Source: Candidatus Latescibacterota bacterium (GTDB taxonomy: Bacteria; Latescibacterota; UBA2968; UBA8231). Taken from it: a stretch of 64,000 nt of DNA. How positions within the stretch are numbered: the stretch's first letter is position 1; each line of letters opens with the position of its first letter. Below are positions 4,770 to 43,810 of this stretch, in pieces. The stretch lies in NCBI GenBank assembly GCA_965204725.1, contig OZ242005.1, positions 5,184,001-5,248,000 on the forward strand, written 5' to 3'. The notes below the pieces were generated by a model. That model saw only the letters and a program-made list of their open reading frames with translations. It was not told the origin of the DNA and did not search any database. A program made the position numbers and the translations under genes.

Positions 4770-4770
4770 C

Positions 4771-6118: not shown

Positions 6119-6723
6119 GCAGGGGCGGGCGATTGGCTCGTCCCTGTTTTCGTCTGCACCCGCACCGGGCCGCCCGCTTCCTCTCGCACGTGCTCAATCC
6201 CGCGCTGTTGGCGCTGTTGGTATTCGGCGTTCAAGCGCACGGGCAGGACGCTTGGCTCGCCGGCGCGGTGGCGATCGGGGCCTTCTCCTTAATACCCGGG
6301 TTGCTACTGTGGCGCTTGGTGCGGTCGGGCTATCTCGACCAAGCCTATACCGACGACCGCCCCAAACGCGCTACCCTGCTCTTGTTGGGCGCGCTGTGCT
6401 ATGCTTTGGGGACGGCCGCCCTCTACGGCATTGACGCTCCGCCGCTGATGCGGGTCACGGCCGCGGCTGGTGTGGTCAGTACGCTCTTGGTCTGGTGGAT
6501 CAATCGCTCCTACAAGATCAGCATTCACGCGGCTGGTATTGGGGGGGCAACCTGCGTATTGTTGCTCAGCACTGGCGGCGCGGCGTGGCCCTGCTTGTTG
6601 AGTTGGCCGGCCGTCGCTTGGGCGCGGCTTTACTTGCGGGCGCATACGCCCATGCAGCTCGGGGCGGGCGGTGCGCTGGGCGCGGGGAGCATGGCCCTGT
6701 TGTACAGTGCTTTCATACCGTGA
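6103..6723 (+). CDS. PAP2-like membrane protein (phosphoesterase-related)
   Basis: ATG at 6103 overlaps the PqqD gene end; motifs KISIHAAG and WARLYLRAHT; several TM helices. Confidence 0.7.
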   Translation: MAKEISRGGRLARPCFRLHPHRAARFLSHVLNPALLALLVFGVQAHGQDAWLAGAVAIGAFSLIPGLLLWRLVRSGYLDQAYTDDRPKRATLLLLGALCYALGTAALYGIDAPPLMRVTAAAGVVSTLLVWWINRSYKISIHAAGIGGATCVLLLSTGGAAWPCLLSWPAVAWARLYLRAHTPMQLGAGGALGAGSMALLYSAFIP

Positions 6724-6732
6724 GCGCGGCCG

Positions 6733-10417: not shown

Positions 10418-10525
10418 GGCCTATCCTACATGGTTGGCGGTGCCTTCGCCTTCGGGGCGGCGCACCTAGAAGATAATATAGACGAAGCGAAACAAAGCAA
10501 AGCGCGAGGCTTCACCCAGATATAA

Positions 10526-10542
10526 AGCAATATACGTGCCAG
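10526..10542 (-). promoter_or_regulatory. Sigma54 (RpoN) -24/-12 promoter
   Basis: Minus strand reads CTGGCACGTATATTGCT, an exact match to YTGGCACGN4TTGCW, about 110 nt upstream of ORF 9689..10417. Confidence 0.7.
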
Positions 10543-10681
10543 CATCGACTATCGGGTAACGGGGGCTTGCGGGCGGCGTACACTGTGTCGGGAAAGATAC
10601 ACTGTTGGGTTGTTTATGGGTCTTGGTCGCTGGGGGGCAATAGCGGCTGCGCGGGCAACCGACCCGGCCGATCTAGGGCAC

Positions 10682-15331: not shown

Positions 15332-16056
15332 TCGCTGTCGCGCAACAGCCAGCGCACGGCGTTTTGCTGCAACTTTTCGTAGGCCGGGTTCCACAGCGCG
15401 GCGATGGTGTGGCCCGGCGATAAATAGCACACGCGGCCCGCGCCGTATTCGTACGCCCAAGCCGCCTCGCACGTGGTGCCCAAGTCCTGCCAAGTATGCC
15501 CGTCGTCGTTGACGCTGACGGCCAAGACATGGGCTGGGTCCTTGTCGTAGCGCATGAAGTGCTGCTCGTCCTCGACGACAAAGTCCGCCACGCCGCGCGT
15601 TATGGGGTGGTCTGGGCGCGTGATGTGAACGCGGTAGGGACGCACCGGCGGGTGCCCTTGGGTCGTTGCGCCCAACACGTGGCGGAAGTCGCGGCTGCCC
15701 GGGGCGATGTACGTGGAATTGTGGTAGAAAAGAGCCGCTCCACCCGCCTCGACAAAGCTCCGCACGGCGCGGCCTTGGGCCTCGGTAATCCACTGCACGG
15801 GACGGGATTCTGCGGCCTCGACCGGCGGCTCGCTGACGAGCGCGGCCTCTAGGCCGTAGCCATCAGGCCAGATCATGCCGTCGCGAAAGACGATTAGCAG
15901 CCGATAGCCCGACAGATGGGGCGCGTTGAGCAGGGAGCGCTCGTCGGTAAAATCAATGGACAATCCAATGCCTTGGACCAAGGTGCGGCCCAAAGCCGTG
16001 CGGATGTAATCAGACGTGTGATAGCGGTCGCCCACTAGGGCAAAGGCCGTAGCCAT
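15328..16056 (-). CDS. ThuA-like domain protein (class I glutamine amidotransferase-like)
   Basis: GDRYH, FVEAGGAALFYH, HPITRGVADFVVEDEQH, YGAGRVCYLSPGH; GAGGAGG RBS before ATG 16056. Confidence 0.85.
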   Translation of the reverse strand: MATAFALVGDRYHTSDYIRTALGRTLVQGIGLSIDFTDERSLLNAPHLSGYRLLIVFRDGMIWPDGYGLEAALVSEPPVEAAESRPVQWITEAQGRAVRSFVEAGGAALFYHNSTYIAPGSRDFRHVLGATTQGHPPVRPYRVHITRPDHPITRGVADFVVEDEQHFMRYDKDPAHVLAVSVNDDGHTWQDLGTTCEAAWAYEYGAGRVCYLSPGHTIAALWNPAYEKLQQNAVRWLLRDSE

Positions 16057-18770: not shown

Positions 18771-21062
18771 TTGGACCTAGTCGAACCTATACCCGAACGC
18801 CTATTGCCGCATATCCGCGACGAATTGCAACCCGGCGAGCTGCTCATCGTCCTCCTCTCCGCCGACATTCGCTCGGACGGCCAGTACGGCGACTCTTGGT
18901 TTGCGCTCACCGACGAGCGGATACTCGTCTTTCATCCCAATGGGGCCGATAAGCCCGAGACCGTGCGGCTCGGGTTGGACGAAGTGCAGGGCATCCAGAC
19001 CCGCAATTTTGTGGGCAGCGGCGCGCTCGTCGTCGAGCTGGCGGACGAAACCGTCGAGCTGCTGCGCTTTTCGCAGAGTGCGTACTACAAATTTTCCGGC
19101 GTGCCCCAAGCCATTGAGGGGGCTGGCCTAGTCGAGGAAGAAGACGCCGAAGGGGACGGGCCGCTACACGTCGATCCGGTCAAAGTAGTAGAACACTGCC
19201 CCACCTGTGGACGCGCCCACCGCTCCGGCTCCAAAGTCTGCCCCAACTGCCTGCGCCAGACCGAGACCTTCTGGCGGTTGTTTTCCTATATCAAGCCCTA
19301 TAAAACCCAAGCCCTGCTCGGGTTCACATTGACGATTCTGCTGACGGCCATTGGCCTGCTGCCGCCCCAACTCAACCGCATCCTCATCGACGATGTCATC
19401 GTCCCGGAGCTCGTCAAATACGAGGCCGCAGGCATCGCCGCGGGCGAGGCGACCACGCCCCCAGCCGCGAGCGTCCAATACCTGCTGTGGGTCGTGCTCG
19501 GGCTGCTCGGTATCTACATTGGCCGCGGCATTATCAGCGGCGTGCGGATGTACGCCCTAGGATGGCTCGGCCAGCGCGTGGTGTACGATTTGCAGATGCA
19601 AATTTTCCAACACTTGCAGTTGCTGTCGCTGACGTTTTACAACAAGCTCAGCACCGGTCGGATCATGACCCGCGTCACCAGCGACACCGAGCGCATGCGG
19701 AGCTTTATCACCTCGGGGTTCCAAGACATCGTCATCGACGGGCTGACGATCATCGGCATCTGCACGATGCTGTTTGTAATGAATTGGGAATTGGCGCTTT
19801 TGTCGCTGCTCCCAATCCCCTTCATGATCATCGGCACCATCATCTACCGCACCCGCATCCACTGGATTTTTCACCGGATCTGGCGGCGCATTTCCACGCT
19901 CAACGCCATGCTCGCCGACTCCATCCCCGGCGTCAAGGTCGTCAAGGCATTTGCCCAAGAAAACCGCGAGCTCGACCGCTTCAACGAGCGCAATACCGAC
20001 CTGCGCGAGTCGCAGATGACCGCCTTCAGGATGCGCTCCTATTACATTCCGACGATCGCCTTTGTCACCTCGGTCGGCTCCATCATCCTGTGGTGGTTTG
20101 GCGGCAACCGAGTGCTCGGCAACGCGCTGACCTTGGGCGACTTGCAGGCTTTTATCTCGTACATGGTCATGTTCTACGCCCCCGTGCGCTCGCTGTGCAA
20201 CCTCACCGAGCAGCTAGAGGCCGCGGCGACTACGGCCGAGCGCGTCTTTGAGATTATCGACACCGAGCCCGAAGTCCAAGACGACCCGGACGCCGTGGAC
20301 CCCGGCCCGCTTACCGGCGAGGTCGAGTTCCGCAACGTCAGCTTCACGTACGACGGCTCGGCTCGGATCCTCGATCGCATCCACTTTAGGGCCAAGCCCG
20401 GCGAGATGATCGGCATCGTCGGCCCCAGCGGCGCCGGCAAGTCAACCTTGGTCAACCTCATTTCGCGGTTCTACGACGCTACGGACGGCCAACTCCGCAT
20501 TGACGGCTACCCCATTACCCGGCTCAAACAGCAGGCGTTGCGCAGCCAAATCGGCGTGGTCTTGCAAGAGCCTCTGCTCTTCCAAGGCTCCATCGCCAGC
20601 AATATCGCCTACGGTCATCCCGAGGCAACGCGCCAAGAGGTCATTGAGGCGGCCCGCGCGGCCAACGCCCACAAGTTCATCATGAATTTTCCCGACGGCT
20701 ACGACACCCAAGTTGGCGAGCGCGGCGGCCGGCTCTCCGGCGGCGAGCGCCAGCGCATTTCCATTGCCCGCGCCCTAATCGGCAACCCGCGCATCCTGAT
20801 TCTCGACGAGGCCACCGCCTCGGTCGATACCCAGACCGAATACGAGATCCAAGAAGCGCTCGAGCGGCTGGTGGCCGGCCGCACCACCTTTGCCATCGCC
20901 CATCGGCTCTCGACGCTCAAAAACGCCGATCGACTGCTGGTGTTGGAAAGAGGGCGCATCGCCGAGGTGGGCACCCACGAAGAGTTGCTCAACATGGAGG
21001 ACGGCGTCTATCGCCGGCTGGTCAATATGCAAACCGAAATGGCGAAGGTACGGGCGCTATGA
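18771..21062 (+). CDS. ABC exporter-type fused permease/ATPase with N-terminal PH-like and Zn-ribbon extension
   Basis: TTG start, CPTC..CPNC, TM domain, GPSGAGKS, LSGGERQR, ILDEAT. Confidence 0.9.
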   Translation: MDLVEPIPERLLPHIRDELQPGELLIVLLSADIRSDGQYGDSWFALTDERILVFHPNGADKPETVRLGLDEVQGIQTRNFVGSGALVVELADETVELLRFSQSAYYKFSGVPQAIEGAGLVEEEDAEGDGPLHVDPVKVVEHCPTCGRAHRSGSKVCPNCLRQTETFWRLFSYIKPYKTQALLGFTLTILLTAIGLLPPQLNRILIDDVIVPELVKYEAAGIAAGEATTPPAASVQYLLWVVLGLLGIYIGRGIISGVRMYALGWLGQRVVYDLQMQIFQHLQLLSLTFYNKLSTGRIMTRVTSDTERMRSFITSGFQDIVIDGLTIIGICTMLFVMNWELALLSLLPIPFMIIGTIIYRTRIHWIFHRIWRRISTLNAMLADSIPGVKVVKAFAQENRELDRFNERNTDLRESQMTAFRMRSYYIPTIAFVTSVGSIILWWFGGNRVLGNALTLGDLQAFISYMVMFYAPVRSLCNLTEQLEAAATTAERVFEIIDTEPEVQDDPDAVDPGPLTGEVEFRNVSFTYDGSARILDRIHFRAKPGEMIGIVGPSGAGKSTLVNLISRFYDATDGQLRIDGYPITRLKQQALRSQIGVVLQEPLLFQGSIASNIAYGHPEATRQEVIEAARAANAHKFIMNFPDGYDTQVGERGGRLSGGERQRISIARALIGNPRILILDEATASVDTQTEYEIQEALERLVAGRTTFAIAHRLSTLKNADRLLVLERGRIAEVGTHEELLNMEDGVYRRLVNMQTEMAKVRAL

Positions 21063-21562
21063 GCGAGACACGCGGTTATTCGTACGGGGACTTTCTGCTC
21101 GACCCGCAAAAGACGCGCTTCAGCCGGTCCAAGCGCGGCAGCTTGATTCTCCATCTCGACGACGAGGAATACACCGACCTCAAGGTCCGCCGCGCCTTCC
21201 CATTAGAAGAGTCCGACCGCTATATCGGCGTCTTTGCCGCCGAAGACCGCGAACTCGGCCTCATTGAAGACCCGCAGCAGCTCGACGACCAAAGCCGCCA
21301 AGTGCTGCTAGACGAACTCGACAAGGTGTACTTTCAGCCGCAGGTCCTTGCTTTTAATCGCCTCGACGAAGAGTTCGGCGTGTTGCGCGGCCAGATCGAA
21401 ACCACCAGCGGCCCCCGCCAACTCGAAATCCGCAGCTACCGCACCAACGTCCGCATGCTCTCCGGCAACCGAGCCGTCATCGAGGACGTCGATGGCAACC
21501 GCTACTTGATTGCCAACTGGCGAGCGCTGCCGCAAAAGACGCGCGAGATTCTGGGGCTTTAA
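21059..21562 (+). CDS. DUF1854 domain protein
   Basis: VRRAFPL...YIGV...ELGLIED...TTSGPR...IEDVDGNRYLI; coupled to the ABC gene, a known pairing. Confidence 0.8.
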   Translation: MSETRGYSYGDFLLDPQKTRFSRSKRGSLILHLDDEEYTDLKVRRAFPLEESDRYIGVFAAEDRELGLIEDPQQLDDQSRQVLLDELDKVYFQPQVLAFNRLDEEFGVLRGQIETTSGPRQLEIRSYRTNVRMLSGNRAVIEDVDGNRYLIANWRALPQKTREILGL

Positions 21563-21589
21563 CGAGCTTCGATACTTTCCAATCAGAAG

Positions 21590-21699
21590 GCAGCGAAAGA
21601 ATCAGCACTAGAATATGGGTCCAGCTCAATTGTCGTATCAGCGATACGACAATCTCAGGATCGGGAAAAACCTCAGCGAACTGAATCATACGGCGTAGG
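21590..21699 (-). pseudogene. DUF1016/YhcG gene, distal fragment (truncated)
   Basis: Reads LRRMIQFAEVFPDPEIVVSLIRQLSWTH, the direct continuation of the fragment at 27950-28212; the left boundary is approximate. Confidence 0.85.
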
Positions 21700-21939
21700 C
21701 TAAGTACGCGACAGTAAGATGGGGTTCATATTGTTGGGCGTAATCCGGTCGATACGGTGGCGCGTAAGGCAGGTTGCCCTTTGCGTGAGGGCTTTTTTGG
21801 GCATATTTTGGTATTTATGAATAAGCAAGGACGAACAGGAAGATGGTAAATCACTCAACATCTGAGATGACGCTGCCGCCGGTCCAGCCGGCCGCGATGA
21901 CCAGATCCTGCTTCCAATTTCAAGACTTAACAATTCGTC

Positions 21940-21991
21940 GTAACTCCTTGAAAGACAATCAGTTACCCCCCCCCCCCCCCCCCCCCCCCCC
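21940..21991 (+). repeat. 27-bp pseudo-palindrome fused to a C26 homopolymer
   Basis: GTAACTCCTTG-AAAGA-CAATCAGTTAC (21940-21966); 26 C at 21966-21991. Confidence 0.85.
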
Positions 21992-22185
21992 GCATTTTCA
22001 GCTATTAACCACAGTTAGCCACAGTCTCTTTACGTTCCATCGAGGGCCGGATGATCGCTGCGCTGAGGCGCGGTGCTCTATTCGCGCCGGGTTGGTAGTG
22101 GTCTGTACGGCTCTATTTTTGCGGCACCGGCTTAATCAAGGTTGCCAAATCCCAATTTCAAAACGCTTCTAAGAAAGGTTGAATA

Positions 22186-25100
22186 ATGACGCCTATAAAG
22201 TCTCTTATGAGGCCCTACTCCTCCGGCTTTTGGTTACTGGCTGTTAGCTTGGCACTGGTTTGGGCTGGCTCGGCGGCAGCGGACATTACCCTGTCCGTCG
22301 ATAAACCTACCATTCGAGAAGAAGACGGACGAACCGAAATTACCGTAACCGCCGAAAGCGACGCGAAAGTAACCGCAAATACCGTCGTGTCCCTGAAACT
22401 GGGGGCCAAGTTTTTCAGCGGTAACGCATCGCGTCTCCTCCCCAACGGAGTAGGGAATGTCAGCCCCGGCCATACTGTAGATGAACATGGTCGTTTTGTG
22501 GCTTATGGGCAGCCTTGGTGGGCCTTTAGTAGTCCGGCCCGTAATACAGGTGCTCTCCAGGTGTCTCCGACTAAGCCGGGGGGGGATTGGAAAGACTGGC
22601 TCAATAGTCGCGCCCATGTCAATGGCCGCTTCGCCATCACGCTGCCGACGTTAGTGATTCCTAAGGACCAGAAAAAGGCGACCGGCACCATTATCCTCAC
22701 GCCGAGGGATAACGACGAGCGCGGTTTTTATAATACCTATGATGACTTCACCATTCCTTTTGAGCTTGACTATCCCAACGTCAGCTATTCCGACATTCAG
22801 GCCGCTGGATCCCCTAACCTCTTGGCAGAATTTCAAGCCCGCAACGCCCCACCCCACCGCTATCCCGATCTGATTATCAAAATTGACGGCCTTGCCGGTA
22901 GCGAGACGGTTGAGCAGACGGAGATTCGCGTAACGGACGACGAAAAGCTAGCCAATCAGGTAAACCTTTCGTTTTCGCCCGCGAGTCTCAGCAAGGACGC
23001 AGGGCCGACTCCTGTTACCGTGACCGCGACCTTAAACGGCGGTACGCTGCGGTCGGACCAAACCTTTACTTTGTCCTTTAAGACAGGCTCGGAGGTCGAT
23101 CTTGGCTGCGTCGATAGAGGAAACTGCGCTCGCGCTGCTTTCCCGTTGGGTTTTACCGCGGACAGTATCCTGACGCGCGACACGGATTACTCGACGACGT
23201 CCGCATCGCTAACCATACGCCGGAATAAGCCGTCGGGGAAGGCGACGATTACCATCGATCCCAAAGGCAAGGTTGGCTACATCGCGCTCGCGGCGGGGAC
23301 GGAGCGGCTGGTCGTCAACGGCATTGACTTGAACCTCGATGGGGACATGAGCGACTCGCTGGCTCTTAGTAAAATGGATCGTTATCAGGATAGTTCGACT
23401 CTACGGCCCGACCGCGCCGTTTTCTTTTCAGAAGAAGGTCTAGGCTGTACCCCCACGACCTCCGGCCCCCTCTCTCAACACGATCTCAACTTTGATGGCC
23501 GCTGCGACGGCCTTATTCGGGAAGCGAGAATCGGCGTCGACCTGAACGGTAATGGGGTGGTTGATCCTGCTGCGAACGCTGGTGCTGCCATAAACTTTGG
23601 TAGTTTGATGGATGCTGTTCAACAAAATTTCGGGATTGCTCGTGAGTTTATCCTATTTGGCCAAGTAGTCGCAGGATCAGCCACCCGCCAAGACAACCGC
23701 GACAGCGGAGCCCTGCTGATGGCTGCGGTATATCCTCCAGGCAATCAGCCATCTAGGGTGCCTTGGATCGCTGACCGGGGTCCTCAGTTTAGCACCACTG
23801 TTCCGTGGGGCTCCCCGGCTGCTGACCATCCCGATGAGTGGCCTACGTCGAATCCGAGGTTTGTGTTAGTTGAAAGCTTACTGCCGCAGTATATTGAGTT
23901 GCCCCCCCATTTCTTTAAGATAACGGACACCCCCGTTGTCACCTTCAAAGACGCGACCGACGGCCTGACCGCCACGCCTTCAACGATCCGCGAGGGAGCC
24001 GGTCGGCAAGAAATCGCCCTGAAAGTCACCTTGAAGGCCGCCACATCAGCGGATACGCGGGTGACGTTCACCATCACTCCGCAAGAGGGTCGCCGCGACA
24101 TAGACTACACGGCCGTCTTGAGCGATCTCGTCATTCCCAAAGGCCAGACCTCCGCTTCAACCACGCTGGTTCTCACCCCGGTCGATAACGAGGTGGTGAA
24201 CGACGCACGGACATTCAACGTAGTCGCCACAATCGGCAGCGCGGACGACGCCCCCGAGGTCACCGAGACTATTACCATTGTAGATGACGAGACGCAGAGC
24301 ACACAGATCATGCTGACGGCCAGTCCCGCCGAAGTCAAGGCTGGCACCGGCGCCAACAACGTCACGATCACCGGCACGTTAGACGGCCAATCCTTCGACG
24401 AGGACGTGGACATAGTCTTAGTCGTCACCACCGACACGGACGCCGACGGCGACATGGACGACGCCGACAAAGCCGCCACCCGCGACACCGAATACACGGC
24501 CATCTTGCGCGGCCTGACGATAAAGGCCGGTGAAGTCACAGGCTCGCAGACGATCTCCATCACTCCCCTCGCCGGCGGCGACAAAAAGATCGGCCTAACC
24601 GCCCTAAAAAGCCCGGTCAAGAATGACGACGACGAGGACGTGACAGTCACCACGACCGTCATCACCCTGAAAGACGGCGACCCAGAGACGGGGCCGGGCG
24701 TCCTTGCTTTCGAGGACGACGTAGATGTGGTCTCCACCGTGTTTGAATACGTCGTCGGCACGGCCATTGAGCCTTATGTCCTACCCGCCGCCACCGGCGG
24801 CATTGGCGACAAGACCTACAGCGTGTCCGCCACCCTGCCCGCCGGTCTAGTATTCGACGCAGAAACCCGCACCCTATCGGGCACGCCGCTGACAGCGGGC
24901 GACGCCACCGTCGTGTACACAGTCATCGACAGCGCACCGGACCCAGTCAACACCGCCGTCCTCAGCCTGACCTTTGAGATCGGTACGGCTCCGCCCGCCA
25001 CCGTCCGCGTCGCCAGCGTAACCGCGACCCATTCCTCCATACGCGAAAACGGCGAGACGACCTCCATTCTCCTGACGGCAACGTTGGCCGCTCCCGCCGC

Positions 25101-26589
25101 CAAAGCCGAGACCATCCTCTTCACGATTGCCGCTCCCAGTTCGGGGACGCCAGCCGTGCGCGACGCCGATTACACCGCTGTCCTAGGCGGCTCCGGCGTC
25201 ATCGCGGTGGGCGAGACGCAAGGCCGGACGATGCTGACCTTGACCCCCCTCGACAACGCGGAGGTTGATGGCAATAAGTACTTGGGGGTGGAGGCGTCGG
25301 CCTCGGGCGGCTCGGCACGGACGGACATCAAGATCGCCGATGACGAAACGCCGAGTACGTCTTTGGCACTGTCGGTATCGCCCCACACCCTCAGCGAGGA
25401 CGCGGGCGTAACCCAGCTCACCGTCACGGCCATGCTGGACGGCAAAGCCCTCGACGCGGCTGCAACCGTAACCATCTCCATTGATCCGGCCTCAGCCGCC
25501 ACCCGCGATTTAGATTACTCCGCCCTATTCAACCCCTCACTGGTCATCCCGGCCGGTTCCACCTCCGGTTCCCTCACGTTCCTGATCGACCCGACCGCCG
25601 ACAACGAGGACGAAGGCAACGAGACGATCACGCTCATCGGGGCCTCTGAGGGCCTGACGAGCACCTCCGCCGATATAACGCTAGCCGACGCTGGCACAGA
25701 GACCCCGCTTCCCCCAGAAGCCACCCCTCTCGCCTTCACCGACGGCACGTCCATTGACGACCAAGAGTACACCGCCGGTACGGAGATCAGCGCTATGGAA
25801 CTCCCAGCCGCCGTTGGCGGTGTCGGCGACATCGCCTACAGCGTCACCGACCTGCCCGCGGGCCTGTCCTTCGACGCGGCCACCCGGACCATTTCGGGCA
25901 CACCCGACGCCGCTACCGACGAACCTGTCGAAGTAACCTATACCGCCGCCGACGGCACCGGTGCCTCCGCCACGCTAACCTTCTCCATCACAGTCAACGC
26001 CGAGATAACCTTCGACCTAGTATTCTTCGGCGCCGGCAAGCTCGTCCCAACCGCTTCCGACGACGGTGCTTCCATCCCCGAGTTCGCTGTCGGCCACCCG
26101 GTAGCCGCTTTCACGCTGCCTTCGGCTACCGGCGGCACCGAGCCGCTGACCTACACCCTTTCCCCAGAGCTCCCGTCGGGCCTGTCCTTCGACGCTGCCA
26201 CCCGCACCATTTCCGGCACGCCGCAAGCCGAAGGCTCCCCCCTCTACATCTACACAGTGACGGACGCTCTCGGTGCCAGCGTAACAATGCAGCTCCAAAC
26301 GCGCCCCGCCGCCTTCGTGCTCGCAACCAACTACCCGAACCCGTTTAACCCGGCGACGACGATCCAGTACGCCCTGCCCCAACCGGCCGACGTCCAGTTG
26401 ACTGTCTATAATGTCGTCGGTCAGGTGGTGCGGACGCTGGTCGCCGAGCACCAAGCTGCCGGCCGCTACCTAGTCGCTTGGGACGCGACGAATGACAACG
26501 GCCAAAGCCTGTCGGCGGGGATTTACTTCTATCGCTTGCAGGCGGGCGGCGAGTTCCACGCCGTCAGAAAGATGCTGCTGCTCAAGTAG
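22186..26589 (+). CDS. Large secreted surface protein: Calx-beta/Ig-like repeats, putative Ig (He_PIG) repeats, C-terminal FlgD-Ig/T9SS-like sorting domain
   Basis: Signal peptide; about 6 repeats of PxxIxEDAGxTxITVTA...RDxDY...LxIPxG; three LPAGLxFDAxTRTxSGTP repeats; NYPNPFNPATTIQY...SAGIYFYRL...KMLLLK. Confidence 0.9.
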   Translation: MTPIKSLMRPYSSGFWLLAVSLALVWAGSAAADITLSVDKPTIREEDGRTEITVTAESDAKVTANTVVSLKLGAKFFSGNASRLLPNGVGNVSPGHTVDEHGRFVAYGQPWWAFSSPARNTGALQVSPTKPGGDWKDWLNSRAHVNGRFAITLPTLVIPKDQKKATGTIILTPRDNDERGFYNTYDDFTIPFELDYPNVSYSDIQAAGSPNLLAEFQARNAPPHRYPDLIIKIDGLAGSETVEQTEIRVTDDEKLANQVNLSFSPASLSKDAGPTPVTVTATLNGGTLRSDQTFTLSFKTGSEVDLGCVDRGNCARAAFPLGFTADSILTRDTDYSTTSASLTIRRNKPSGKATITIDPKGKVGYIALAAGTERLVVNGIDLNLDGDMSDSLALSKMDRYQDSSTLRPDRAVFFSEEGLGCTPTTSGPLSQHDLNFDGRCDGLIREARIGVDLNGNGVVDPAANAGAAINFGSLMDAVQQNFGIAREFILFGQVVAGSATRQDNRDSGALLMAAVYPPGNQPSRVPWIADRGPQFSTTVPWGSPAADHPDEWPTSNPRFVLVESLLPQYIELPPHFFKITDTPVVTFKDATDGLTATPSTIREGAGRQEIALKVTLKAATSADTRVTFTITPQEGRRDIDYTAVLSDLVIPKGQTSASTTLVLTPVDNEVVNDARTFNVVATIGSADDAPEVTETITIVDDETQSTQIMLTASPAEVKAGTGANNVTITGTLDGQSFDEDVDIVLVVTTDTDADGDMDDADKAATRDTEYTAILRGLTIKAGEVTGSQTISITPLAGGDKKIGLTALKSPVKNDDDEDVTVTTTVITLKDGDPETGPGVLAFEDDVDVVSTVFEYVVGTAIEPYVLPAATGGIGDKTYSVSATLPAGLVFDAETRTLSGTPLTAGDATVVYTVIDSAPDPVNTAVLSLTFEIGTAPPATVRVASVTATHSSIRENGETTSILLTATLAAPAAKAETILFTIAAPSSGTPAVRDADYTAVLGGSGVIAVGETQGRTMLTLTPLDNAEVDGNKYLGVEASASGGSARTDIKIADDETPSTSLALSVSPHTLSEDAGVTQLTVTAMLDGKALDAAATVTISIDPASAATRDLDYSALFNPSLVIPAGSTSGSLTFLIDPTADNEDEGNETITLIGASEGLTSTSADITLADAGTETPLPPEATPLAFTDGTSIDDQEYTAGTEISAMELPAAVGGVGDIAYSVTDLPAGLSFDAATRTISGTPDAATDEPVEVTYTAADGTGASATLTFSITVNAEITFDLVFFGAGKLVPTASDDGASIPEFAVGHPVAAFTLPSATGGTEPLTYTLSPELPSGLSFDAATRTISGTPQAEGSPLYIYTVTDALGASVTMQLQTRPAAFVLATNYPNPFNPATTIQYALPQPADVQLTVYNVVGQVVRTLVAEHQAAGRYLVAWDATNDNGQSLSAGIYFYRLQAGGEFHAVRKMLLLK

Positions 26590-26605
26590 CCGGTCGCCGT
26601 CAGCA

Positions 26606-26654
26606 GGAGCCGGTTCCGCCGGCTCCCGTCCTTCCCGCGCACGCGGGAAGGACG
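26606..26654. repeat. Two adjacent hairpins, the second REP-like
   Basis: GGAGCCGG-ttccg-CCGGCTCC and CGTCCTTCCCGCG-ca-CGCGGGAAGGACG. Confidence 0.6.
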
Positions 26655-26668
26655 AATCGAGTTCATAC

Positions 26669-26712
26669 AATGGGGCCTCTCTCAGCCAGAGGCCCCATTT
26701 TTCTTTCTTTTC
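26669..26712 (+). terminator. Rho-independent terminator
   Basis: AATGGGGCCTCT-ctcagcc-AGAGGCCCCATT followed by a T-rich tail. Confidence 0.8.
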
Positions 26713-26812
26713 CAATAGACGTGACGCACCGCCTAGTTTTCCCTTATCTTGCAAGTATGGCCGAACCGCTCTCCGGCCTTCCCCCCGAACCCTCCCACCA
26801 AAGGAGCGAACC

Positions 26813-27067
26813 ATGACAGAACAACCCCTCCCCCTAACCCAAGAGCAAGACCACGACCGCCGCCTCAGCCAGCTAGAAGGCACTGCCGAACAATTCGTCG
26901 CGCAAAGCCGCCAGACCAACACCCGCTTAGACCACATCGATCAAACCATTGCCGCGCAAGGCCGCGAACTGCGGCGAGAGATCGCCGTGCTAACCCGCTG
27001 GTTGGTTGGAATGCAAGTAGCCAGCTTGGTGGTGCTGGGGACGCTGATCTTGTTGCGCTTGCCCTAA
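26813..27067 (+). CDS. Small coiled-coil protein with C-terminal TM anchor (DUF1640/XhlA-like shape)
   Basis: AAGGAG RBS, 84 aa, RLSQLEG...RLDHIDQ...LTRWLVGMQVASLVVLGTLILLRLP. Confidence 0.75.
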   Translation: MTEQPLPLTQEQDHDRRLSQLEGTAEQFVAQSRQTNTRLDHIDQTIAAQGRELRREIAVLTRWLVGMQVASLVVLGTLILLRLP

Positions 27068-27096
27068 TCACCCGCCCCGGCCACCCCCCAATTTCG

Positions 27097-27140
27097 TAAC
27101 ATGGGGCTTCTCTCCAACAGAGGCCCCATGTTATCTTTTT
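27097..27140 (+). terminator. Rho-independent terminator (paralog of the 26669 hairpin)
   Basis: TAACATGGGGC...GCCCCATGTTA followed by TCTTTTT. Confidence 0.7.
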
Positions 27141-27147
27141 ACTTAGT

Positions 27148-27456
27148 ATGTACGATGTCCTGCTAACGCCCGAATTTATCGAATGGATGGACGCCTTGGA
27201 TCCTGTAACGGCTGACCGGGTTTCCAGTGTCCTCGACCGCATGGCAGAAGGCAATTGGGGAGACTACAAAACCTTATCAGGTGTGCGCGGCATTTTCGAG
27301 CGTCGCCTGATGGGAAAAGGACCGGGCATTCGGTTGTACTTCTGTCGGCAGGGCAGAAACGCAGTGATGATATTGACCGCTGGCGACAAAGCCACCCAAC
27401 AACGCGGAGATATTGCCAGAGCCCGGCGTCTCAGGGAACGATACGTACAAAATTAG
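27148..27456 (+). CDS. RelE/ParE-superfamily toxin (addiction module killer protein type)
   Basis: TPEFIEWM...RMAEGNWGDYK...GIFERR..GPGIRLYF...LTAGDKATQQ.DIARA. Confidence 0.85.
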   Translation: MYDVLLTPEFIEWMDALDPVTADRVSSVLDRMAEGNWGDYKTLSGVRGIFERRLMGKGPGIRLYFCRQGRNAVMILTAGDKATQQRGDIARARRLRERYVQN

Positions 27457-27465
27457 GAGGGTATT

Positions 27466-27669
27466 ATGGCACTCACCAAACACGATGACTACGCCTGCCT
27501 GCGAGCGAAGCGAGACCCGGAATTCGCCCGACGGATACGTCAAAGAGCGATTGAACTGCTGGACGGCGATGAAGAGGATCGCCGGATTGCCCGCCGGATA
27601 CTCCAGAATCAGCTCGGGATCGCCGTTGGCGAAATCGACGAACTAGAACGGGAGAAGGCAACAGTCTGA
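27466..27669 (+). CDS. Short putative antitoxin (antidote-like N-terminus, no obvious HTH)
   Basis: AGGAGG RBS; MALT...RAKRDPEFARR...AIELL.GD; lies directly after the toxin. Confidence 0.65.
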   Translation: MALTKHDDYACLRAKRDPEFARRIRQRAIELLDGDEEDRRIARRILQNQLGIAVGEIDELEREKATV

Positions 27670-27949
27670 TAGAGGAAAGTCATTTTCAGTTATCTTGCTA
27701 TTTAAAGACTGTAGCGGTGTTCAACCTACGCAACGGGGGTTCCACCCCCATTCATGCGGTACTACTTACTGTTTACTGTTTAAAATCACGTCCGACCCTG
27801 AGAAGCCTTTTTAAAACCCCCGTTGGACGCTTGGTGGGGCTGTCGAGTGGCCTTGGCGTCCAGTGTTTTTCATAGGGCGAGACGCCCTCGGGCCTAATCC
27901 CCTCAATCCCGGACGCATCGGGCGTACTCAATAGGTATCGCGTACTTAG

Positions 27950-28212
27950 CGGCGTAGGTTTTTCTCCGAAAACCCGGTTCCAAACTTGCTCGCCAATTGT
28001 CGCGACAGCGTAGCGACAATTTCCTTTCCGTAATCGGCTCGTTGTCCTTGAAGAATCTCGTTCTGAATCCGCTTGCCGATTCTCCAGTAGAGACTCGTCA
28101 TACCTGCATTGATGGCCTGAGCAACTCCCGCACGGGTCTGCTCAATCATACTCTGCACATCGGCAAGCAAGCCATCCGGCGTGTCGATAATATCGAGATG
28201 TTCGTCGCTCAT
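27950..28212 (-). pseudogene. DUF1016/YhcG gene, N-terminal fragment interrupted by insertion
   Basis: INAGMTSLYWRIGKRI...RADYGKEIVATLSRQL..FGTGFSEKNLRR, then a stop inside the right TIR. Confidence 0.9.
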
Positions 28213-28261
28213 GTCCGATTGTCCTGAGAATTTACTGGAGACGAGACTGGCTAGCATACAC

Positions 28262-29071
28262 TCAAGCGGCGAAATACGCCCGCATTTTCTCCAGACCAAT
28301 CCGGGCGACGTCGGCCGGGTCCTCAGCCCACAGCCCCGGATTGAACAACTCCAACGACACAAACCCCTCGTAGCCCTGCGCTCGCGCCAGCCGCTCAATC
28401 GCGCGCAACGGCCCGGCCCCGTCGCCGGGCATCACCCGGTCGGCGTCGCTTTGTTCGGCAAAGGGCTTGTCGGCTGGCGCGTCGTTCCAGTGCCAGACCG
28501 CGACCTTGTCGCCCGGCACTTTGGCAATGCTCTCGATGGGGCCGCCGCCGCGCAGGATGTGGAACGGGTCCATAACCAGACTCGCATCGGGATGGTCGGC
28601 GTCCACGGCAATCTGCCAAGCTTGGTCAATGGTATGCACGCTTTGCACAAAGCCGAGGTACTCCATGGCTGGGCGCACGCCGATTTCCCGGCCCATCTCC
28701 AGCAAGGCGCGGTAATCGGCCCCGCCCCGGCTCAGGTCGCAGGGCGTCAGCGGTGGGCTGGCGACTATGAACTCGGCCCCCACCGCTACGGCCTGCGCCA
28801 TTCGCCGCCGAACCTCCTCCATAGCCTGCACCCGCGCCGCGCCCTCAGCCCCCAACCAGCCGTGGAGCGCGATGACGGTCGGCACGGCCAGCCCGTAGTC
28901 GGCTAGTGCCCGTCGCACATCTGCGAGCGAACCGCCCTGCTGCTCGTGCGCGGTCAAGTCGTCGTTCCACAGCTCAATGCCCCGGTAGCCGGTCTGCCCG
29001 GCAATGCGGATTTTCTCCAGCAGCGACGCCGGCCGGATCGTCGAAGTGTTGAGCGCGTATTGCACCGTCAT
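28262..29071 (-). CDS. Sugar phosphate isomerase/epimerase (xylose isomerase-like TIM barrel, IolI-like)
   Basis: GYRGIELW, PAMEYLG, DPFH, HWND, DRVMPGDG, SLELFN. Confidence 0.85.
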   Translation of the reverse strand: MTVQYALNTSTIRPASLLEKIRIAGQTGYRGIELWNDDLTAHEQQGGSLADVRRALADYGLAVPTVIALHGWLGAEGAARVQAMEEVRRRMAQAVAVGAEFIVASPPLTPCDLSRGGADYRALLEMGREIGVRPAMEYLGFVQSVHTIDQAWQIAVDADHPDASLVMDPFHILRGGGPIESIAKVPGDKVAVWHWNDAPADKPFAEQSDADRVMPGDGAGPLRAIERLARAQGYEGFVSLELFNPGLWAEDPADVARIGLEKMRAYFAA

Positions 29072-29093
29072 GTTGTTTCCTTTCTCGTTGTTG

Positions 29094-30116
29094 TTAGGCC
29101 ACACATAAAAAATCCTTTCCCTCGATCAGCCCCAATCCAGCCAACGCTTCCCGAATCAGCACCCGCGCCCCCCGCGACGCCACCGCCGACAAGAGGAACG
29201 GCCGCTCGTGACGCGCCCACCAAGCCGGCAAGTCTTCCGGCCCGATCACCGGCTTGCGCCGCAAGGTGCCGCCGATTTTCTTGGGGGCAATATCGACAAA
29301 TACGTTGGGAGCACGGCCTTCGCGCTCCAAGTGTTTGGCGAGCCGCCGGCCAGTCTTGCCCGCCCCCCATACTACCAGCCCGTCCCGCTCTTGCAGCGGC
29401 CCGGCGCAAAGGTAGTGCGCTTTGGCGCGGAGGAAGTTCTCCACGGAGTAGCGGCTCTGTACGTGCGTGGCTCGCCGCGGATGCTCGCGCCAATAGTGCA
29501 AGACCTCCGGCACCTTGGCAAAGCGCCGGCCCGCCGCCCGATAGCGCAACCACAGATCGTAGTCTTCCGGCCATCCCCGATCTTGATACCCCCCCAAGGC
29601 CACCAATTCCTCGCGGCGCATCATGGCCGACGGATGGGCGATGGGACTTTCGATGAAAAACTCTCGTTCAATGGCCGCGCTATCTACCAAGCCGTTTAGC
29701 CACGCCTCATACACCCGCATCCCCTCCCCGGTCGCGGCCCGCGGAAAGATCTCCACCAGACAGCTCACGACACTCAAATTGCGATCTGCTTCCAACCACG
29801 CGAGTTGTTTTTCCAAGCGCTCGGGGTGCATTCGGTCGTCGGCGTCCATGCGCGCCACGTATTCGCCCCGACACCACGGCAAGCCCCGGTTCGGCGCCGC
29901 GACAATGCCCCCGTGGTCGGCGAGCAACGCCCGAAAGCGGCCATCGCGACGACTCCATTCCAAGAGCATGTCCCCACTCTCGTCCTCCGAGCCGTCGTCT
30001 ATGCCGACGACCTCAAAGTCTTCCCAGCTCTGCGCTTGGATGCTCGCCAGTGTTTCCGGCAGGGTGGCGGCTGCGTTGAACACGGGTAGTAGTACTGATA
30101 CGCGGGGCGTTTTCAT
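29094..30116 (-). CDS. Glycosyltransferase family 2
   Basis: VSVLLPVFN, IDDGSED, ARMDADD, EDYDLWLR. Confidence 0.9.
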   Translation of the reverse strand: MKTPRVSVLLPVFNAAATLPETLASIQAQSWEDFEVVGIDDGSEDESGDMLLEWSRRDGRFRALLADHGGIVAAPNRGLPWCRGEYVARMDADDRMHPERLEKQLAWLEADRNLSVVSCLVEIFPRAATGEGMRVYEAWLNGLVDSAAIEREFFIESPIAHPSAMMRREELVALGGYQDRGWPEDYDLWLRYRAAGRRFAKVPEVLHYWREHPRRATHVQSRYSVENFLRAKAHYLCAGPLQERDGLVVWGAGKTGRRLAKHLEREGRAPNVFVDIAPKKIGGTLRRKPVIGPEDLPAWWARHERPFLLSAVASRGARVLIREALAGLGLIEGKDFLCVA

Positions 30117-30180
30117 GGTTGCAAGTTTAAGCGCTCGACCTAAGTACGCGACCCTTACGTTGCGTAGCCTTTTCTGGTGT

Positions 30181-30241
30181 TGCCGCTGCGTCCGGGATCG
30201 AGGGCGTCCCGCCCTCGACGAGGGCAAGATGCCCTCGATCC
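30181..30241. repeat. REP-like palindromic element, copy 1
   Basis: 61 bp with 60/61 identity to the reverse complement of 43725-43785; paired GAGGGC..GCCCTC hairpins. Confidence 0.85.
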
Positions 30242-30314
30242 CGGGGAGGGTGGCCGCGGATGGCTCGTGGTACGGTGCTTGACATTCTTTTGCTCAATGC
30301 CCGATTTTTAATCT

Positions 30315-31076
30315 ATGATACATCTCAAATCGCCCGTGGAAATGGACCGCATCCGCGCCAGTTGCCGCATCGCCGCCGAAGCCATGCTGCGCGTGGAGGA
30401 AGCCCTCGCGCCCGGCGTCACCACCCGCTCCCTAGACCGAATAGCCGACCGCTACATCCGCAGCCAAGGAGCGGTTGCCAGCGCCTTGGGCTACCGCGGC
30501 TTTCCCCGCAGCATCTGCATCTCGGTCAACGACGAAGTCGTCCACGGTATCCCCGGCGACCGCGTCCTGCAAGAAGGGGACATCCTCGCCGTTGACATTG
30601 CCGTTAAAAAGGACGGCTTTCACGGCGACATGAACGTCACCATGAAAACCGGCTGCGTACCCCCCCAAACCCAACGCCTGCTCGACGCCACGCGCCAGAG
30701 CTTGGAGGAGGGATTGGCCGCCTGTACGCCCGGGCGACGCCTCGGCGACATTGGCCACGCCATCCAAAGCTATGTCGAAGCGCACGGCTTTTCCATCGTG
30801 CGCACGTACTGCGGCCATGGCATTGGTCGCAACTTCCACGAGGAGCCCCAGTTGCTCCACTACGGCACGGCCGGCACGGGCCGCCGCCTGCAAAGCGGCA
30901 TGGTCTTTACCATCGAGCCGATGGTCAACGAGGGCGGCTACGACACGCGCGTACTCGACGACGATTGGACGGCCGTCACGGCCGACGGCAAGCTCTCGGC
31001 TCAATACGAGCACACCGTGGCTGTCACCGACAACGGGCCGGATGTGCTGTCGCGCTTTGCCGACTTGCCGTACTGA
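30315..31076 (+). CDS. map: Methionine aminopeptidase type I
   Basis: CISVNDEVVHGIP, DGFHGD, GHGIGRNFHEEP, FTIEPM, AQYEHT. Confidence 0.97.
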   Translation: MIHLKSPVEMDRIRASCRIAAEAMLRVEEALAPGVTTRSLDRIADRYIRSQGAVASALGYRGFPRSICISVNDEVVHGIPGDRVLQEGDILAVDIAVKKDGFHGDMNVTMKTGCVPPQTQRLLDATRQSLEEGLAACTPGRRLGDIGHAIQSYVEAHGFSIVRTYCGHGIGRNFHEEPQLLHYGTAGTGRRLQSGMVFTIEPMVNEGGYDTRVLDDDWTAVTADGKLSAQYEHTVAVTDNGPDVLSRFADLPY

Positions 31077-43690: not shown

Positions 43691-43724
43691 CGGGTACTCC
43701 CTTACTACACGACACGACACCAAA

Positions 43725-43785
43725 GGATCGAGGGCATCTTGCCCTCGTCGAGGGCGGGACGCCCTCGATCCCGGACGTAGCGGCA
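43725..43785. repeat. REP-like palindromic element, copy 2 (inverted)
   Basis: Reverse complement of 30181-30241 with one mismatch. Confidence 0.85.
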
Positions 43786-43810
43786 TTTCTGCGCCGACGA
43801 TGACGACGGC

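What the first reader, a model, noticed from the sequence alone, without database searches (positions are those of the whole stretch)
21691..27958. Transposase-free 6.25-kb cargo transposon carrying a giant secreted Ig-repeat protein and a toxin-antitoxin pair
Seen in sequence: a perfect 9-bp direct repeat CGGCGTAGG (21691-21699 and 27950-27958) flanks exact 12-bp terminal inverted repeats CTAAGTACGCGA/TCGCGTACTTAG. Removing the insert and one repeat rejoins the two DUF1016 fragments in frame (...FSEKNLRR-MIQFAEVFPD...). Inside are only a 1467-aa surface protein, an 84-aa membrane-anchored protein and a RelE-type TA pair; there is no transposase, integrase or resolvase ORF. Established: 9-bp TSDs with CT-starting ends are typical of IS4-family IS10/IS50 elements. 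Inference: this is a non-autonomous unit mobilised in trans that spreads adhesin-like surface genes and is stabilised by an addiction module. The intact TSD suggests a recent insertion.
Basis: partly seen in the sequence, partly recalled or inferred. Interest (0 to 1): 0.9.

Follow-up and report, generated by a model that had tools for sequence, protein, structure and literature searches.

The report
Transposase-less cargo transposon with MITE relatives
A 6.25-kb stretch carrying a huge cell-surface protein gene and a toxin-antitoxin-like pair has jumped into a dead gene using short inverted ends that it shares with miniature transposons in related uncultured bacteria, a known kind of hitch-hiking mobile element seen here in a little-studied phylum.

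Summary
Perfect 12-bp inverted ends (21700-21711 / 27938-27949) sit inside a perfect 9-bp direct repeat (21691-21699 / 27950-27958). The two flanks continue each other in the Pfam DUF1016_N model (positions 1-71, then 72-104). None of the insert's ORFs matches a transposase, integrase or resolvase family.

New evidence: the same 12-mer ends a 135-bp miniature element at 30140-30274. It also ends 91-136-bp copies in two other Latescibacterota genomes; one has a perfect 9-bp target duplication and one has 8 of 9. About 77 bp at the cargo element's right end match these miniature elements.

The insert is therefore best read as a non-autonomous cargo transposon, a "mobile insertion cassette", moved in trans by a transposase I did not find. 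The IS4 assignment is untested.

The cargo is a 1467-aa T9SS-sorted Ig-repeat protein, an 84-aa tail-anchored partner, and a RelE/ParE-type toxin with a 67-aa neighbour. A complex model supports binding of toxin and neighbour. The source genome holds mosaic paralogs of the giant protein.

This is a new member of a known kind. Interest is moderate.

The parts
21691..21699 (.). Left copy of the 9-bp target-site duplication, CGGCGTAGG
21700..21711 (+). Left terminal inverted repeat, CTAAGTACGCGA. Only about 15 nt at this end resemble the miniature elements.
   Evidence: model positions 1-15, E 2.4, not significant on its own
21776..21792 (+). Terminator-like hairpin followed by a T run, just inside the left end
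21966..21991 (+). Run of 26 C, 194 nt upstream of the giant ORF's ATG. It is the only C/G homopolymer of 12 or more in the window.
22186..26589 (+). 1467-aa secreted surface protein. The N-terminus looks like a signal peptide (by eye). It has He_PIG Ig-like domains (3 stretches) and a C-terminal FlgD_ig / T9SS type A sorting domain.
   Evidence: He_PIG 3e-22; FlgD_ig 3.6e-13; TIGR04183 35.3 bits, cutoff 23; 866 homologs
26669..26699 (+). Terminator-like hairpin after the giant ORF; 80% identical to the hairpin at 27096-27134
   Evidence: (D13/I2)
26813..27067 (+). 84-aa coiled-coil protein with a hydrophobic C-terminal tail. It appears to be a conserved neighbour of giant-protein homologs. Function unknown.
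   Evidence: shared contig lengths; DUF1640-like lead only
27096..27134 (+). Second terminator-like hairpin, after the 84-aa ORF
27148..27456 (+). 102-aa RelE/ParE-family (Gp49 / HigB-like) toxin
   Evidence: PF05973 6.7e-07; TIGR02683 67.6 bits, cutoff 62.85
27466..27669 (+). 67-aa ORF in the antitoxin position. It matches no curated family. A complex model supports binding to the toxin.
   Evidence: no family; 5 relatives among 1.84 billion representatives; lead; ipSAE 0.74 vs best control 0.00
27874..27949 (-). Right end. About 77 nt are homologous to the first 77 positions of the miniature-element model, including the motif CGTCCGGGATTGAGGG.
   Evidence: E 4.1e-08
27938..27949 (-). Right terminal inverted repeat (TCGCGTACTTAG on the + strand)
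27950..27958 (.). Right copy of the 9-bp target-site duplication
27950..28212 (-). N-terminal fragment of the interrupted DUF1016 remnant (Pfam DUF1016_N positions 1-71)
21588..21699 (-). C-terminal fragment of the same remnant (positions 72-101/104). Homology ends there and no nuclease domain follows.
30140..30274 (+). 135-bp miniature element of the same family: exact 12-bp end, strong central palindrome, degenerate far end. Its flanking 9-mers match at 7 of 9. It lies between a GT2 gene and the map gene.
   Evidence: E 4.6e-39; used to build the model; z -4.87
43706..43786 (-). 5'-truncated copy of the miniature element (model positions 42-131), without the terminal 12-mer, next to tRNA-Met
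   Evidence: I1; E 3.2e-18

Best explanation
The 6250-bp insert is a non-autonomous cargo transposon, a mobile insertion cassette. It belongs to a family of elements that end in CTAAGTACGCGA and are found in Latescibacterota.

Proposed mechanism: a transposase encoded elsewhere in the genome, most likely of the DDE type, binds the two 12-14-bp inverted termini. It frees or copies the element and joins it to target DNA cut with a 9-bp stagger. Repair of the gaps produces the 9-bp duplication.

In this window the element landed in an already truncated DUF1016 gene, so the insertion probably cost the host nothing. The cargo has three parts: a giant T9SS-sorted Ig-repeat surface protein with its usual 84-aa tail-anchored neighbour, each followed by its own terminator; a RelE/ParE-type toxin; and a small probable antitoxin.

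Shown: the termini, the duplication, the exact interruption of the gene, the absence of a recognisable transposase, and miniature relatives with the same termini and the same duplication length in three genomes.
Inferred: mobilisation in trans, the DDE chemistry, present-day activity, and any stabilising role of the toxin pair.
For: 1. Perfect 12/12 inverted termini lie directly inside a perfect 9/9 direct repeat.
2. The flanks are consecutive parts of one Pfam domain (DUF1016_N 1-71, then 72-104) and are read in the same frame. A DUF1016 remnant in a related genome (L003) reads through positions 65-93 without interruption, but weakly (E 0.013).
3. None of the 14 ORFs scanned in and beside the insert matches a transposase, integrase or resolvase family. 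The 4.4-kb giant ORF leaves only 486 nt and 1360 nt of other sequence.
Five of the 6 are from two Latescibacterota genomes: 4 on CBDETK010000013.1 and 1 on OY282352.1. The sixth, from a Sphingomonas MAG, shows no further similarity; I expected about 2 chance hits.
5. Aligned copies lose similarity exactly at the 12-mer.
6. Of the four small copies with both ends recognisable, the flanking 9-mers match at 9/9 (L004 5942-6077, 136 nt), 8/9 (L002 5016-5106, 91 nt), 7/9 (window 30140-30274) and 4/9 (L006 4797-4892).
7. A profile built from five copies also finds sequences not used to build it: the cargo element's right end (positions 1-77, E 4.1e-08), a truncated copy at 43706-43786 (E 3.2e-18) and L001 (E 6.5e-18).
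8. The kind is documented. [quoted passage not shown]
Against: - No cognate transposase was found. None of the 55 window ORFs or the 33 ORFs in five related 8-kb loci matches a transposase family. Fifteen of the 40 ORFs matched no Pfam family at all.
- No second copy of the cargo element with the same ends, and no orthologous empty site, could be examined.
- Only about 15 nt of the left end resemble the miniature elements.
- The L002 duplication lies in locally repetitive sequence, which could inflate the 8/9 match.
- The L003 read-through is below Pfam's gathering score and is not at the orthologous site.
- No toxin homolog lies on a contig whose length matches a giant-protein contig. The toxin pair is therefore not a regular part of the cargo module.
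Confidence: 0.78

Rival explanations
1. Fossil of a once-autonomous transposon. The element carried its own transposase when it inserted, later lost it by deletion or replacement with the present cargo, and is now immobile.
For: No cognate transposase was found anywhere I could look. The left end shares only the terminal ~15 nt with the miniature elements. The target gene is an old remnant, so the insertion could also be old.
Against: The interior is filled by intact ORFs with their own terminators, and no transposase fragment is present. Both termini and the duplication are perfect. Miniature relatives lacking a transposase show that mobilisation in trans does occur in this family.
Confidence: 0.1
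2. A genomic islet placed by site-specific recombination. The 9-bp repeat would be an attachment-site core, and the inverted 12-mers would be incidental or recombinase-binding sites.
For: Direct repeats flank the insert and the cargo looks accessory.
Against: There is no integrase or recombinase in the insert or the window. The flanking 9-mers differ between family members (CGGCGTAGG here, CCTTTTCCG in L004, CTGGTCACT in L002), which is what target duplications do and a fixed attachment core does not. The termini are inverted, not direct.
Confidence: 0.03
3. Assembly artefact. A repeat-induced or homopolymer-induced chimeric join created an apparent insert.
For: A 26-C homopolymer lies 266 nt inside the left end. 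The giant gene has near-identical stretches in a paralog on a contig of the same length, a situation in which assemblers can err.
Against: Both junctions independently show a terminus plus the same 9-mer, and the two flanks are consecutive parts of one domain. An artefact would not create this. The encoded protein is recorded on one 5,381,243-bp contig. A misjoin inside the element would not alter its ends.
Confidence: 0.03
4. Capture by two separate ends. Two solo or miniature-element ends that happened to flank resident chromosomal genes were used together by the transposase, as Tn3-derived miniature elements are reported to do. This concerns the origin of the element and is compatible with the best explanation.
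For: The two ends are unequal: 77 nt of homology on the right and about 15 nt on the left. The giant-protein/84-aa pair appears to occur widely without the toxin pair. Mosaic non-autonomous transposons made by miniature elements are reported in PMC4133298 (title and start of abstract only).
Against: Neither end is a complete miniature element; there are only two terminal 12-mers, not four. No donor locus was seen.
Confidence: 0.06

Closest known systems
Mobile insertion cassettes (MIC231 of Bacillus cereus; TnXax1-related cassettes of Xanthomonas)
   Same: Passenger genes lie between IS- or transposon-type inverted repeats, there is no transposase of their own, target duplications are present, and solo ends and related short elements occur in the same genomes. 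Reported sizes are 3-19 kb and some carry toxin/antitoxin genes (PMC4337579, passages seen; MIC231 is known to me only from its reference-list entry and from recall).
   Different: Here the duplication is 9 bp (5 bp for the Tn3-type cassettes), the ends are only 12-14 bp, the host is an uncultured Latescibacterota genome, the cargo is a T9SS surface protein, and no cognate autonomous element is known.
Bacterial MITEs and Tn3-derived miniature elements (TIMEs)
   Same: The 91-136-bp relatives have inverted termini, 9-bp duplications, no coding capacity, intergenic positions and a strong central hairpin.
   Different: The window element is about 46 times longer and carries four genes. It shares one subterminal region and the termini with the miniature elements. 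For TIMEs I saw only the title and start of the abstract of PMC4133298.
IS4-family elements of the IS10/IS50 type
   Same: The 9-bp duplication fits the family. A passage of PMC2266710 says IS4 members make duplications of about 10 bp. That IS10/IS50 make 9 bp and start with CT is my recollection.
   Different: No transposase is available to test the family's DDE/YREK signature. Beyond CT the termini do not, from recall, resemble IS10 or IS50 ends. Other families also make 8-10-bp duplications (from recall: IS1, IS256, the IS903 group, ISAs1, ISLre2).
Toxin-antitoxin pairs carried inside transposons (Tn3 family)
   Same: A type II toxin gene with an adjacent small partner lies inside a transposon, near one end. 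PMC7157771 is known to me by title and start of abstract only.
   Different: There the pair sits next to the transposase/resolvase module of autonomous transposons. Here there is no transposition module, and the partner lacks a recognisable DNA-binding antitoxin domain.

Membership tests
Mobile insertion cassette / non-autonomous cargo transposon | Inverted repeats at both termini | tested here: met
   12/12 perfect, 21700-21711 and 27938-27949
Mobile insertion cassette / non-autonomous cargo transposon | Target-site duplication flanking the termini, with an interrupted target that can be reconstructed | tested here: met
   9/9 repeat; DUF1016_N 1-71 then 72-104, same frame
Mobile insertion cassette / non-autonomous cargo transposon | No transposase gene inside; passenger genes only | tested here: met
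   None of the 14 ORFs scanned in and beside the insert matches a transposase, integrase or resolvase family; four cargo genes
Mobile insertion cassette / non-autonomous cargo transposon | Termini shared with other mobile elements of the same genome or lineage | tested here: met
   Miniature elements with the same 12-mer in the window and in 5 loci of two other Latescibacterota genomes
Mobile insertion cassette / non-autonomous cargo transposon | A cognate autonomous element whose transposase moves it in trans | tested here: inconclusive
   None among 55 window ORFs or 33 ORFs of five 8-kb loci. Whole genomes could not be searched.
IS4 family (IS10/IS50 type) derivative | DDE transposase with the YREK signature | not testable with these tools
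   No transposase found
IS4 family (IS10/IS50 type) derivative | Target duplication of about 9-12 bp | tested here: met
   9 bp. Consistent but not specific (PMC2266710 passage).
IS4 family (IS10/IS50 type) derivative | Termini matching those of a named family member | not tested
   No IS reference library was available; only the CT tip agrees, from recall
MITE (for the 91-136-bp relatives) | Short, non-coding, inverted termini, target duplication, several copies | tested here: met
   Window 30140-30274; L004 136 nt with a 9/9 duplication; L002 91 nt with 8/9; L006 96 nt with one terminal mismatch and 4/9; plus 3 truncated copies
Type II toxin-antitoxin pair (RelE/ParE-HigB type, TIGR02683 with its usual partner) | Toxin matches the family model above its cut-off | tested here: met
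   TIGR02683 67.6 bits vs cutoff 62.85; PF05973 29.7 vs 23.9
Type II toxin-antitoxin pair (RelE/ParE-HigB type, TIGR02683 with its usual partner) | Adjacent antitoxin of the known partner family (helix-turn-helix antidote) | tested here: not met
   The 67-aa ORF has no Pfam, NCBIfam, PADLOC or PDB sequence match. The only lead is from the Atlas: top cluster auto-named antidote protein at 0.90, and a cluster in which 40% of members carry dnstrm_HI1420 at 0.86.
Type II toxin-antitoxin pair (RelE/ParE-HigB type, TIGR02683 with its usual partner) | The two proteins bind each other | tested here: inconclusive
   Prediction only. ipSAE 0.74, best of 3 controls 0.00; the mark was reached by 58 of 80 solved complexes and 2 of 110 mismatched pairs; contacts agree at 96% or more between runs; partner pLDDT 86 or more. 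My own alignments were used, so the counts hold only roughly, and the pass may reflect likeness to solved toxin-antitoxin complexes.
T9SS cargo protein | C-terminal type A sorting domain | tested here: met
   TIGR04183 35.3 bits vs cutoff 23, residues 1383-1456. The Pfam Por_Secre_tail match, 25.9 bits, is just under its cutoff of 27.
T9SS cargo protein | T9SS machinery present in the genome | not tested
   Not in the window; the genome was not available
Composite transposon (two complete IS or MITE copies flanking cargo) | A complete element at each end | tested here: not met
   Only one terminal 12-mer at each end; the left end matches the model over 15 nt only

The most novel reading that the evidence does not exclude
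The insert may be one copy of a family of cassettes with the same ends that duplicate, move and reshuffle a multi-copy family of giant T9SS surface proteins across Latescibacterota. It would be a transposon-driven surface-variation system, comparable to the cassettes that spread TALE effectors in Xanthomonas, with the 26-C tract upstream of the gene acting as a slippage-prone on/off switch.

Pointers:
- At least four further paralogs (68-90% identical) lie on a contig of the same length as the source contig.
- One paralog is 100% identical over about 450 aligned residues but only 28-48% identical in the N-terminal part.
- A 93%-identical paralog of the 84-aa partner lies on a contig of that length too.
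- Several homologs sit on contigs of 4.5-6.1 kb, about the size of the element, as collapsed repeats would.

None of those loci could be read.
Probability: 0.2. Interest if true: 0.65.

Novelty: new member of a known kind. Interest (0 to 1): 0.4.

Why it matters
Non-autonomous cassettes are an under-annotated route by which genes move without leaving a transposase as a marker. Here the cargo is a giant secreted surface protein in a candidate phylum known almost only from metagenomes, so the element would be missed by any annotation that looks for transposases.

The 12-mer plus 9-bp duplication gives a simple handle. With it one can census a new MITE/cassette family in Latescibacterota, find its transposase, and test whether the family of mosaic surface proteins spreads by transposition.

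The kind of element, the presence of toxin-antitoxin genes in transposons, and MITEs themselves are all established, so the advance is incremental.

Tried and rejected
Copy numbers of identical proteins therefore stayed unknown.
As a result I could not fetch the loci of the giant-protein paralogs, intact DUF1016 orthologs, or a true empty site.
- Rfam found nothing in 21000-31000 at E up to 1 except a sub-threshold sRNA match inside the giant ORF (19.7 bits against a gathering score of 88). It found nothing but two tRNAs in the whole window. The short repeats are therefore not a known RNA family.
- PADLOC gave no match for the toxin, the 67-aa ORF or the 84-aa ORF.
- The plasmid collection had no match to the miniature element or to the whole insert. 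The phage and E. coli collections were not tried.
- The sigma-70 promoter scan gave 1 site against 2.4 expected, so it was uninformative. No promoter could be assigned to the giant gene or related to the C tract.
- I looked for a larger element using the 12-mer at 30140 as a partner end. The outer 9-mers do not match and the two nearer ends face outward, so this was rejected.
- The apparent ORF-free gap at 46786-49115 was an artefact of my ORF filter. An 856-aa ORF with a weak Plug-domain match lies there.
- Literature: 'Latescibacter' + 'inverted repeat' + 'transposase' gave 2 papers, two versions of one magnetosome study. In the search 'Latescibacter / MITE / transpos' with at least 2 of 3 terms, none of the 12 listed papers out of 5,638 contained 'Latescibacter'. 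So I found no description of this element family in the held library.

Full report
OBSERVATION. CGGCGTAGG occurs at 21691-21699 and 27950-27958. Directly inside these copies lie CTAAGTACGCGA (21700-21711) and its reverse complement (27938-27949). The bases next to the 9-mer differ, so the repeat is exactly 9 bp. From terminus to terminus the element is 6250 bp, with 58.8% G+C against 60.3% for the window.

On the minus strand the 9-mer is read in the same frame on both sides...FSEKNLRR, then a stop supplied by the terminus, and LRRMIQFAEVFPD.... Pfam places the upstream fragment on DUF1016_N positions 1-71 and the downstream fragment on positions 72-104 of 137. This is a precise insertion with a target duplication and cannot be put down to chance.

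One correction to the picture: the target was already a gene remnant. Homology ends at about 21588, the C-terminal nuclease domain is absent, and the convergent DUF1854 gene ends at 21562.

CONTENTS.
- The 1467-aa ORF (22186-26589) has an N-terminus that looks like a signal peptide (by eye), three He_PIG Ig-like stretches, and a C-terminal FlgD_ig / T9SS type A sorting domain (TIGR04183 35.3 bits, cutoff 23).
- It is followed by a terminator-like hairpin, then an 84-aa ORF (26813-27067: coiled coil plus hydrophobic tail), then a second hairpin 80% identical to the first.
- Next comes a 102-aa toxin that passes the NCBIfam RelE/ParE model TIGR02683 (67.6 bits, cutoff 62.85) and Pfam Gp49.
- Last is a 67-aa ORF with no match in Pfam, NCBIfam, PADLOC or PDB sequences. 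It has only 5 relatives at E up to 0.001 among 1.84 billion representative proteins, two of them fused to TPR repeats.
- An Atlas look-up gave only leads for the 67-aa ORF: a top cluster auto-named 'addiction module antidote protein' at 0.90, and a cluster in which 40% of members carry dnstrm_HI1420 at 0.86.
- A complex prediction of the toxin with the 67-aa protein supports binding. The ipSAE is 0.74 and the best of 3 controls is 0.00; the mark was reached by 58 of 80 solved complexes and 2 of 110 mismatched pairs. The runs agree in at least 96% of contacts and the partner's pLDDT is at least 86. My own alignments were used (31 and 5 rows), so the counts hold only roughly, and the pass may reflect likeness to solved toxin-antitoxin complexes.
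- None of the 14 ORFs scanned in or beside the insert matches a transposase, integrase or resolvase family. Outside the giant ORF only 486 and 1360 nt remain.

THE ENDS BELONG TO A REPEAT FAMILY. A third exact copy of the 12-mer lies at 30140, between a glycosyltransferase gene and the map gene. It is followed by the motif CGTCCGGGATCGAGGG and a strong palindrome (folding z-score -4.87). The same motif lies 22 nt inside the cargo element's right terminus. The palindrome recurs without the 12-mer at 43706-43786, beside tRNA-Met.

It returned 6 loci. Four are on one Candidatus Latescibacterota MAG contig (CBDETK010000013.1), one is on an uncultured Latescibacteria chromosome (OY282352.1), and one is from a Sphingomonas MAG. 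The Sphingomonas locus shows no further similarity, and I estimate about two chance hits for this pattern.

The window is not from either Latescibacterota genome. Apart from a 58-nt DUF1016-remnant match in L003 (see 'Other things seen'), only the repeat matches, at 84-97% over 40-111 nt. In the alignment, similarity begins exactly at the 12-mer and is absent upstream of it.

Four small copies have both ends recognisable:
- L004 5942-6077: 136 nt, flanked by a perfect 9-bp duplication, CCTTTTCCG.
- L002 5016-5106: 91 nt, flanking 9-mers match at 8 of 9, in locally repetitive DNA.
- Window 30140-30274: 135 nt, 7 of 9.
- L006 4797-4892: 96 nt, far terminus with one mismatch, 4 of 9.
L003 has no recognisable far end, and L001 and window 43706-43786 are truncated.

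A profile built from five copies finds three sequences that were not used to build it: the cargo element's right end over model positions 1-77 (E 4.1e-08), the truncated copy at 43706-43786 (E 3.2e-18) and L001 (E 6.5e-18). The cargo element's left end matches over only 15 positions (E 2.4). All the small copies are intergenic, in ordinary chromosomal surroundings. None of the 33 ORFs in the five Latescibacterota loci matches a transposase family.

MECHANISM. Together these findings indicate classical cut-or-copy transposition by a transposase that recognises 12-14-bp inverted termini and makes 9-bp staggered target cuts. That transposase acts in trans on miniature elements and on this 6.25-kb cassette.
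- Shown: the termini, the duplication, the interrupted target, the lack of a transposase, and relatives with the same duplication length in three genomes.
- Inferred: the DDE chemistry, present activity, and any role of the toxin pair in retaining the element.
The unequal ends (77 nt against about 15 nt of family homology) suggest two possible origins. Either the cargo replaced most of a parent element, or two separate ends were used together.

COMPARISON WITH KNOWN ELEMENTS. This matches the definition of a mobile insertion cassette: passenger genes between IS-related inverted repeats, no transposase, activated by a cognate transposase. Reported cassettes are 3-19 kb, sometimes carry toxin/antitoxin genes, and occur alongside solo ends (PMC4337579, passages seen). 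Transposons carrying toxin-antitoxin pairs, and miniature elements that build mosaic non-autonomous transposons, are also in print; for PMC7157771 and PMC4133298 I saw only titles and the starts of abstracts.

A passage of PMC2266710 says IS4 members make duplications of about 10 bp. That IS10/IS50 make 9 bp and start with CT is recollection. Other families also make 8-10-bp duplications, and there is no transposase to test.

THE CARGO FAMILY. The giant protein has 866 homologs at E up to 0.001 among the 8000 candidates scored. Four of them (P0003 90%, P0008 81%, P0013 81%, P0028 68% identity) are recorded on a contig of 5,381,243 bp, the same length as the contig holding the window's own protein.

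P0003 is 100% identical to the window's protein over about 450 aligned residues, but only 28-48% identical in parts of the N-terminal 250. This mosaic suggests recent duplication or gene conversion.

The 84-aa protein has 79 homologs, including one at 93% identity on a contig of that same length. Eight contig lengths are shared between the two hit lists: 5381243, 5613566, 150956, 108646, 78446, 59759, 13994 and 7135. This indirectly indicates that the two genes are regular neighbours.

None of the toxin's 34 homologs lies on a contig with one of those lengths. The toxin pair therefore looks like a separate addition to the cassette.

Several giant-protein homologs sit on contigs of 4.5-6.1 kb, about the size of the element. 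I could not read any of these loci.

OTHER THINGS SEEN.
- A 26-C run lies 194 nt upstream of the giant ORF.
- A DUF1016 remnant in L003 is 88% identical over 58 nt to the window's C-terminal fragment. It lies at a different locus, contains the same perfect hairpin, and reads through model positions 65-93.
- P0238, a database protein, begins like the 67-aa ORF and continues as a translation of miniature-element sequence.
- A 1703-aa helicase-nuclease at 10685-15793 matches a PADLOC candidate defence model along its full length.

LIMITS.
- Only one genome scan was allowed.
- No IS reference library and no paper supplements were available.
For these reasons the cognate transposase, further cargo copies, and a true empty allele remain unchecked.

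VERDICT. The feature is real and correctly observed. It is best explained as a mobile insertion cassette of a previously undescribed Latescibacterota MITE family (confidence about 0.78). It is a new member of a known kind, of moderate interest.

Noticed in passing
window 21966-21991: A run of 26 C, the only C/G homopolymer of 12 or more in the window, lies inside the element 194 nt upstream of the giant ORF's start. It could be a slippage-prone expression switch, or its length may be uncertain in the assembly. No promoter could be placed relative to it.
   Followed up: partly
window 22186-26589; proteins P0003, P0008, P0013, P0028, P0002: The giant protein has at least four paralogs on a contig of the same length as the source contig. 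P0003 is 100% identical over about 450 aligned residues but only 28-48% identical in N-terminal blocks. This mosaic suggests recent duplication or gene conversion in a variable surface-protein family.
   Followed up: partly
window 26813-27067: Homologs of the 84-aa tail-anchored protein share eight contig lengths with giant-protein homologs, including contigs of 7135 and 13994 bp. The two genes therefore look like a conserved pair. Relatives vary in length (82-145 aa) through internal coiled-coil repeats.
   Followed up: partly
window 26662-26701 and 27093-27132: Two terminator-like hairpins, 80% identical to each other, bracket the 84-aa gene. Many homologs of that gene lie on contigs of only 0.5-1.7 kb, as if the region often breaks assemblies.
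   Followed up: no
window 21612-21668; L003 1297-1374: The C-terminal DUF1016 fragment is 88% identical over 58 nt to a remnant in another Latescibacterota genome, at a non-syntenic place. Both contain the same perfect 10-11-bp-stem hairpin within the coding sequence, and both lose homology at about the same downstream point. The remnant may itself be part of a repeated or mobile sequence.
   Followed up: partly
protein P0238 (relative of window 27466-27669): This 58-aa database protein matches the 67-aa ORF over its first 26 residues (85%). It then reads ...PYFAYAFS...GIEGVPPS..., which is the translation of miniature-element sequence. In another genome a family member therefore appears to have cut into a homolog of this gene.
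   Followed up: partly
window 43706-43786: A truncated copy of the miniature element, lacking its terminal 12-mer, lies 70 nt downstream of tRNA-Met (43559-43635).
   Followed up: partly
window 104-15793: A 1703-aa helicase-nuclease (10685-15793, -) matches the PADLOC candidate defence model PDC-S37 over its full length (1940 bits) and Hhe (774 bits). Nearby are a RecD2-like helicase (6733-8925), a methyltransferase, and six ORFs (104-6723) with no Pfam or PADLOC match. This may be a defence island.
   Followed up: no
L002 4880-5130: The 91-nt miniature element in the OY282352.1 chromosome sits within short TGACCA-type repeats arranged as an inverted pair on either side. This weakens its 8-of-9 duplication as independent evidence.
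   Followed up: no
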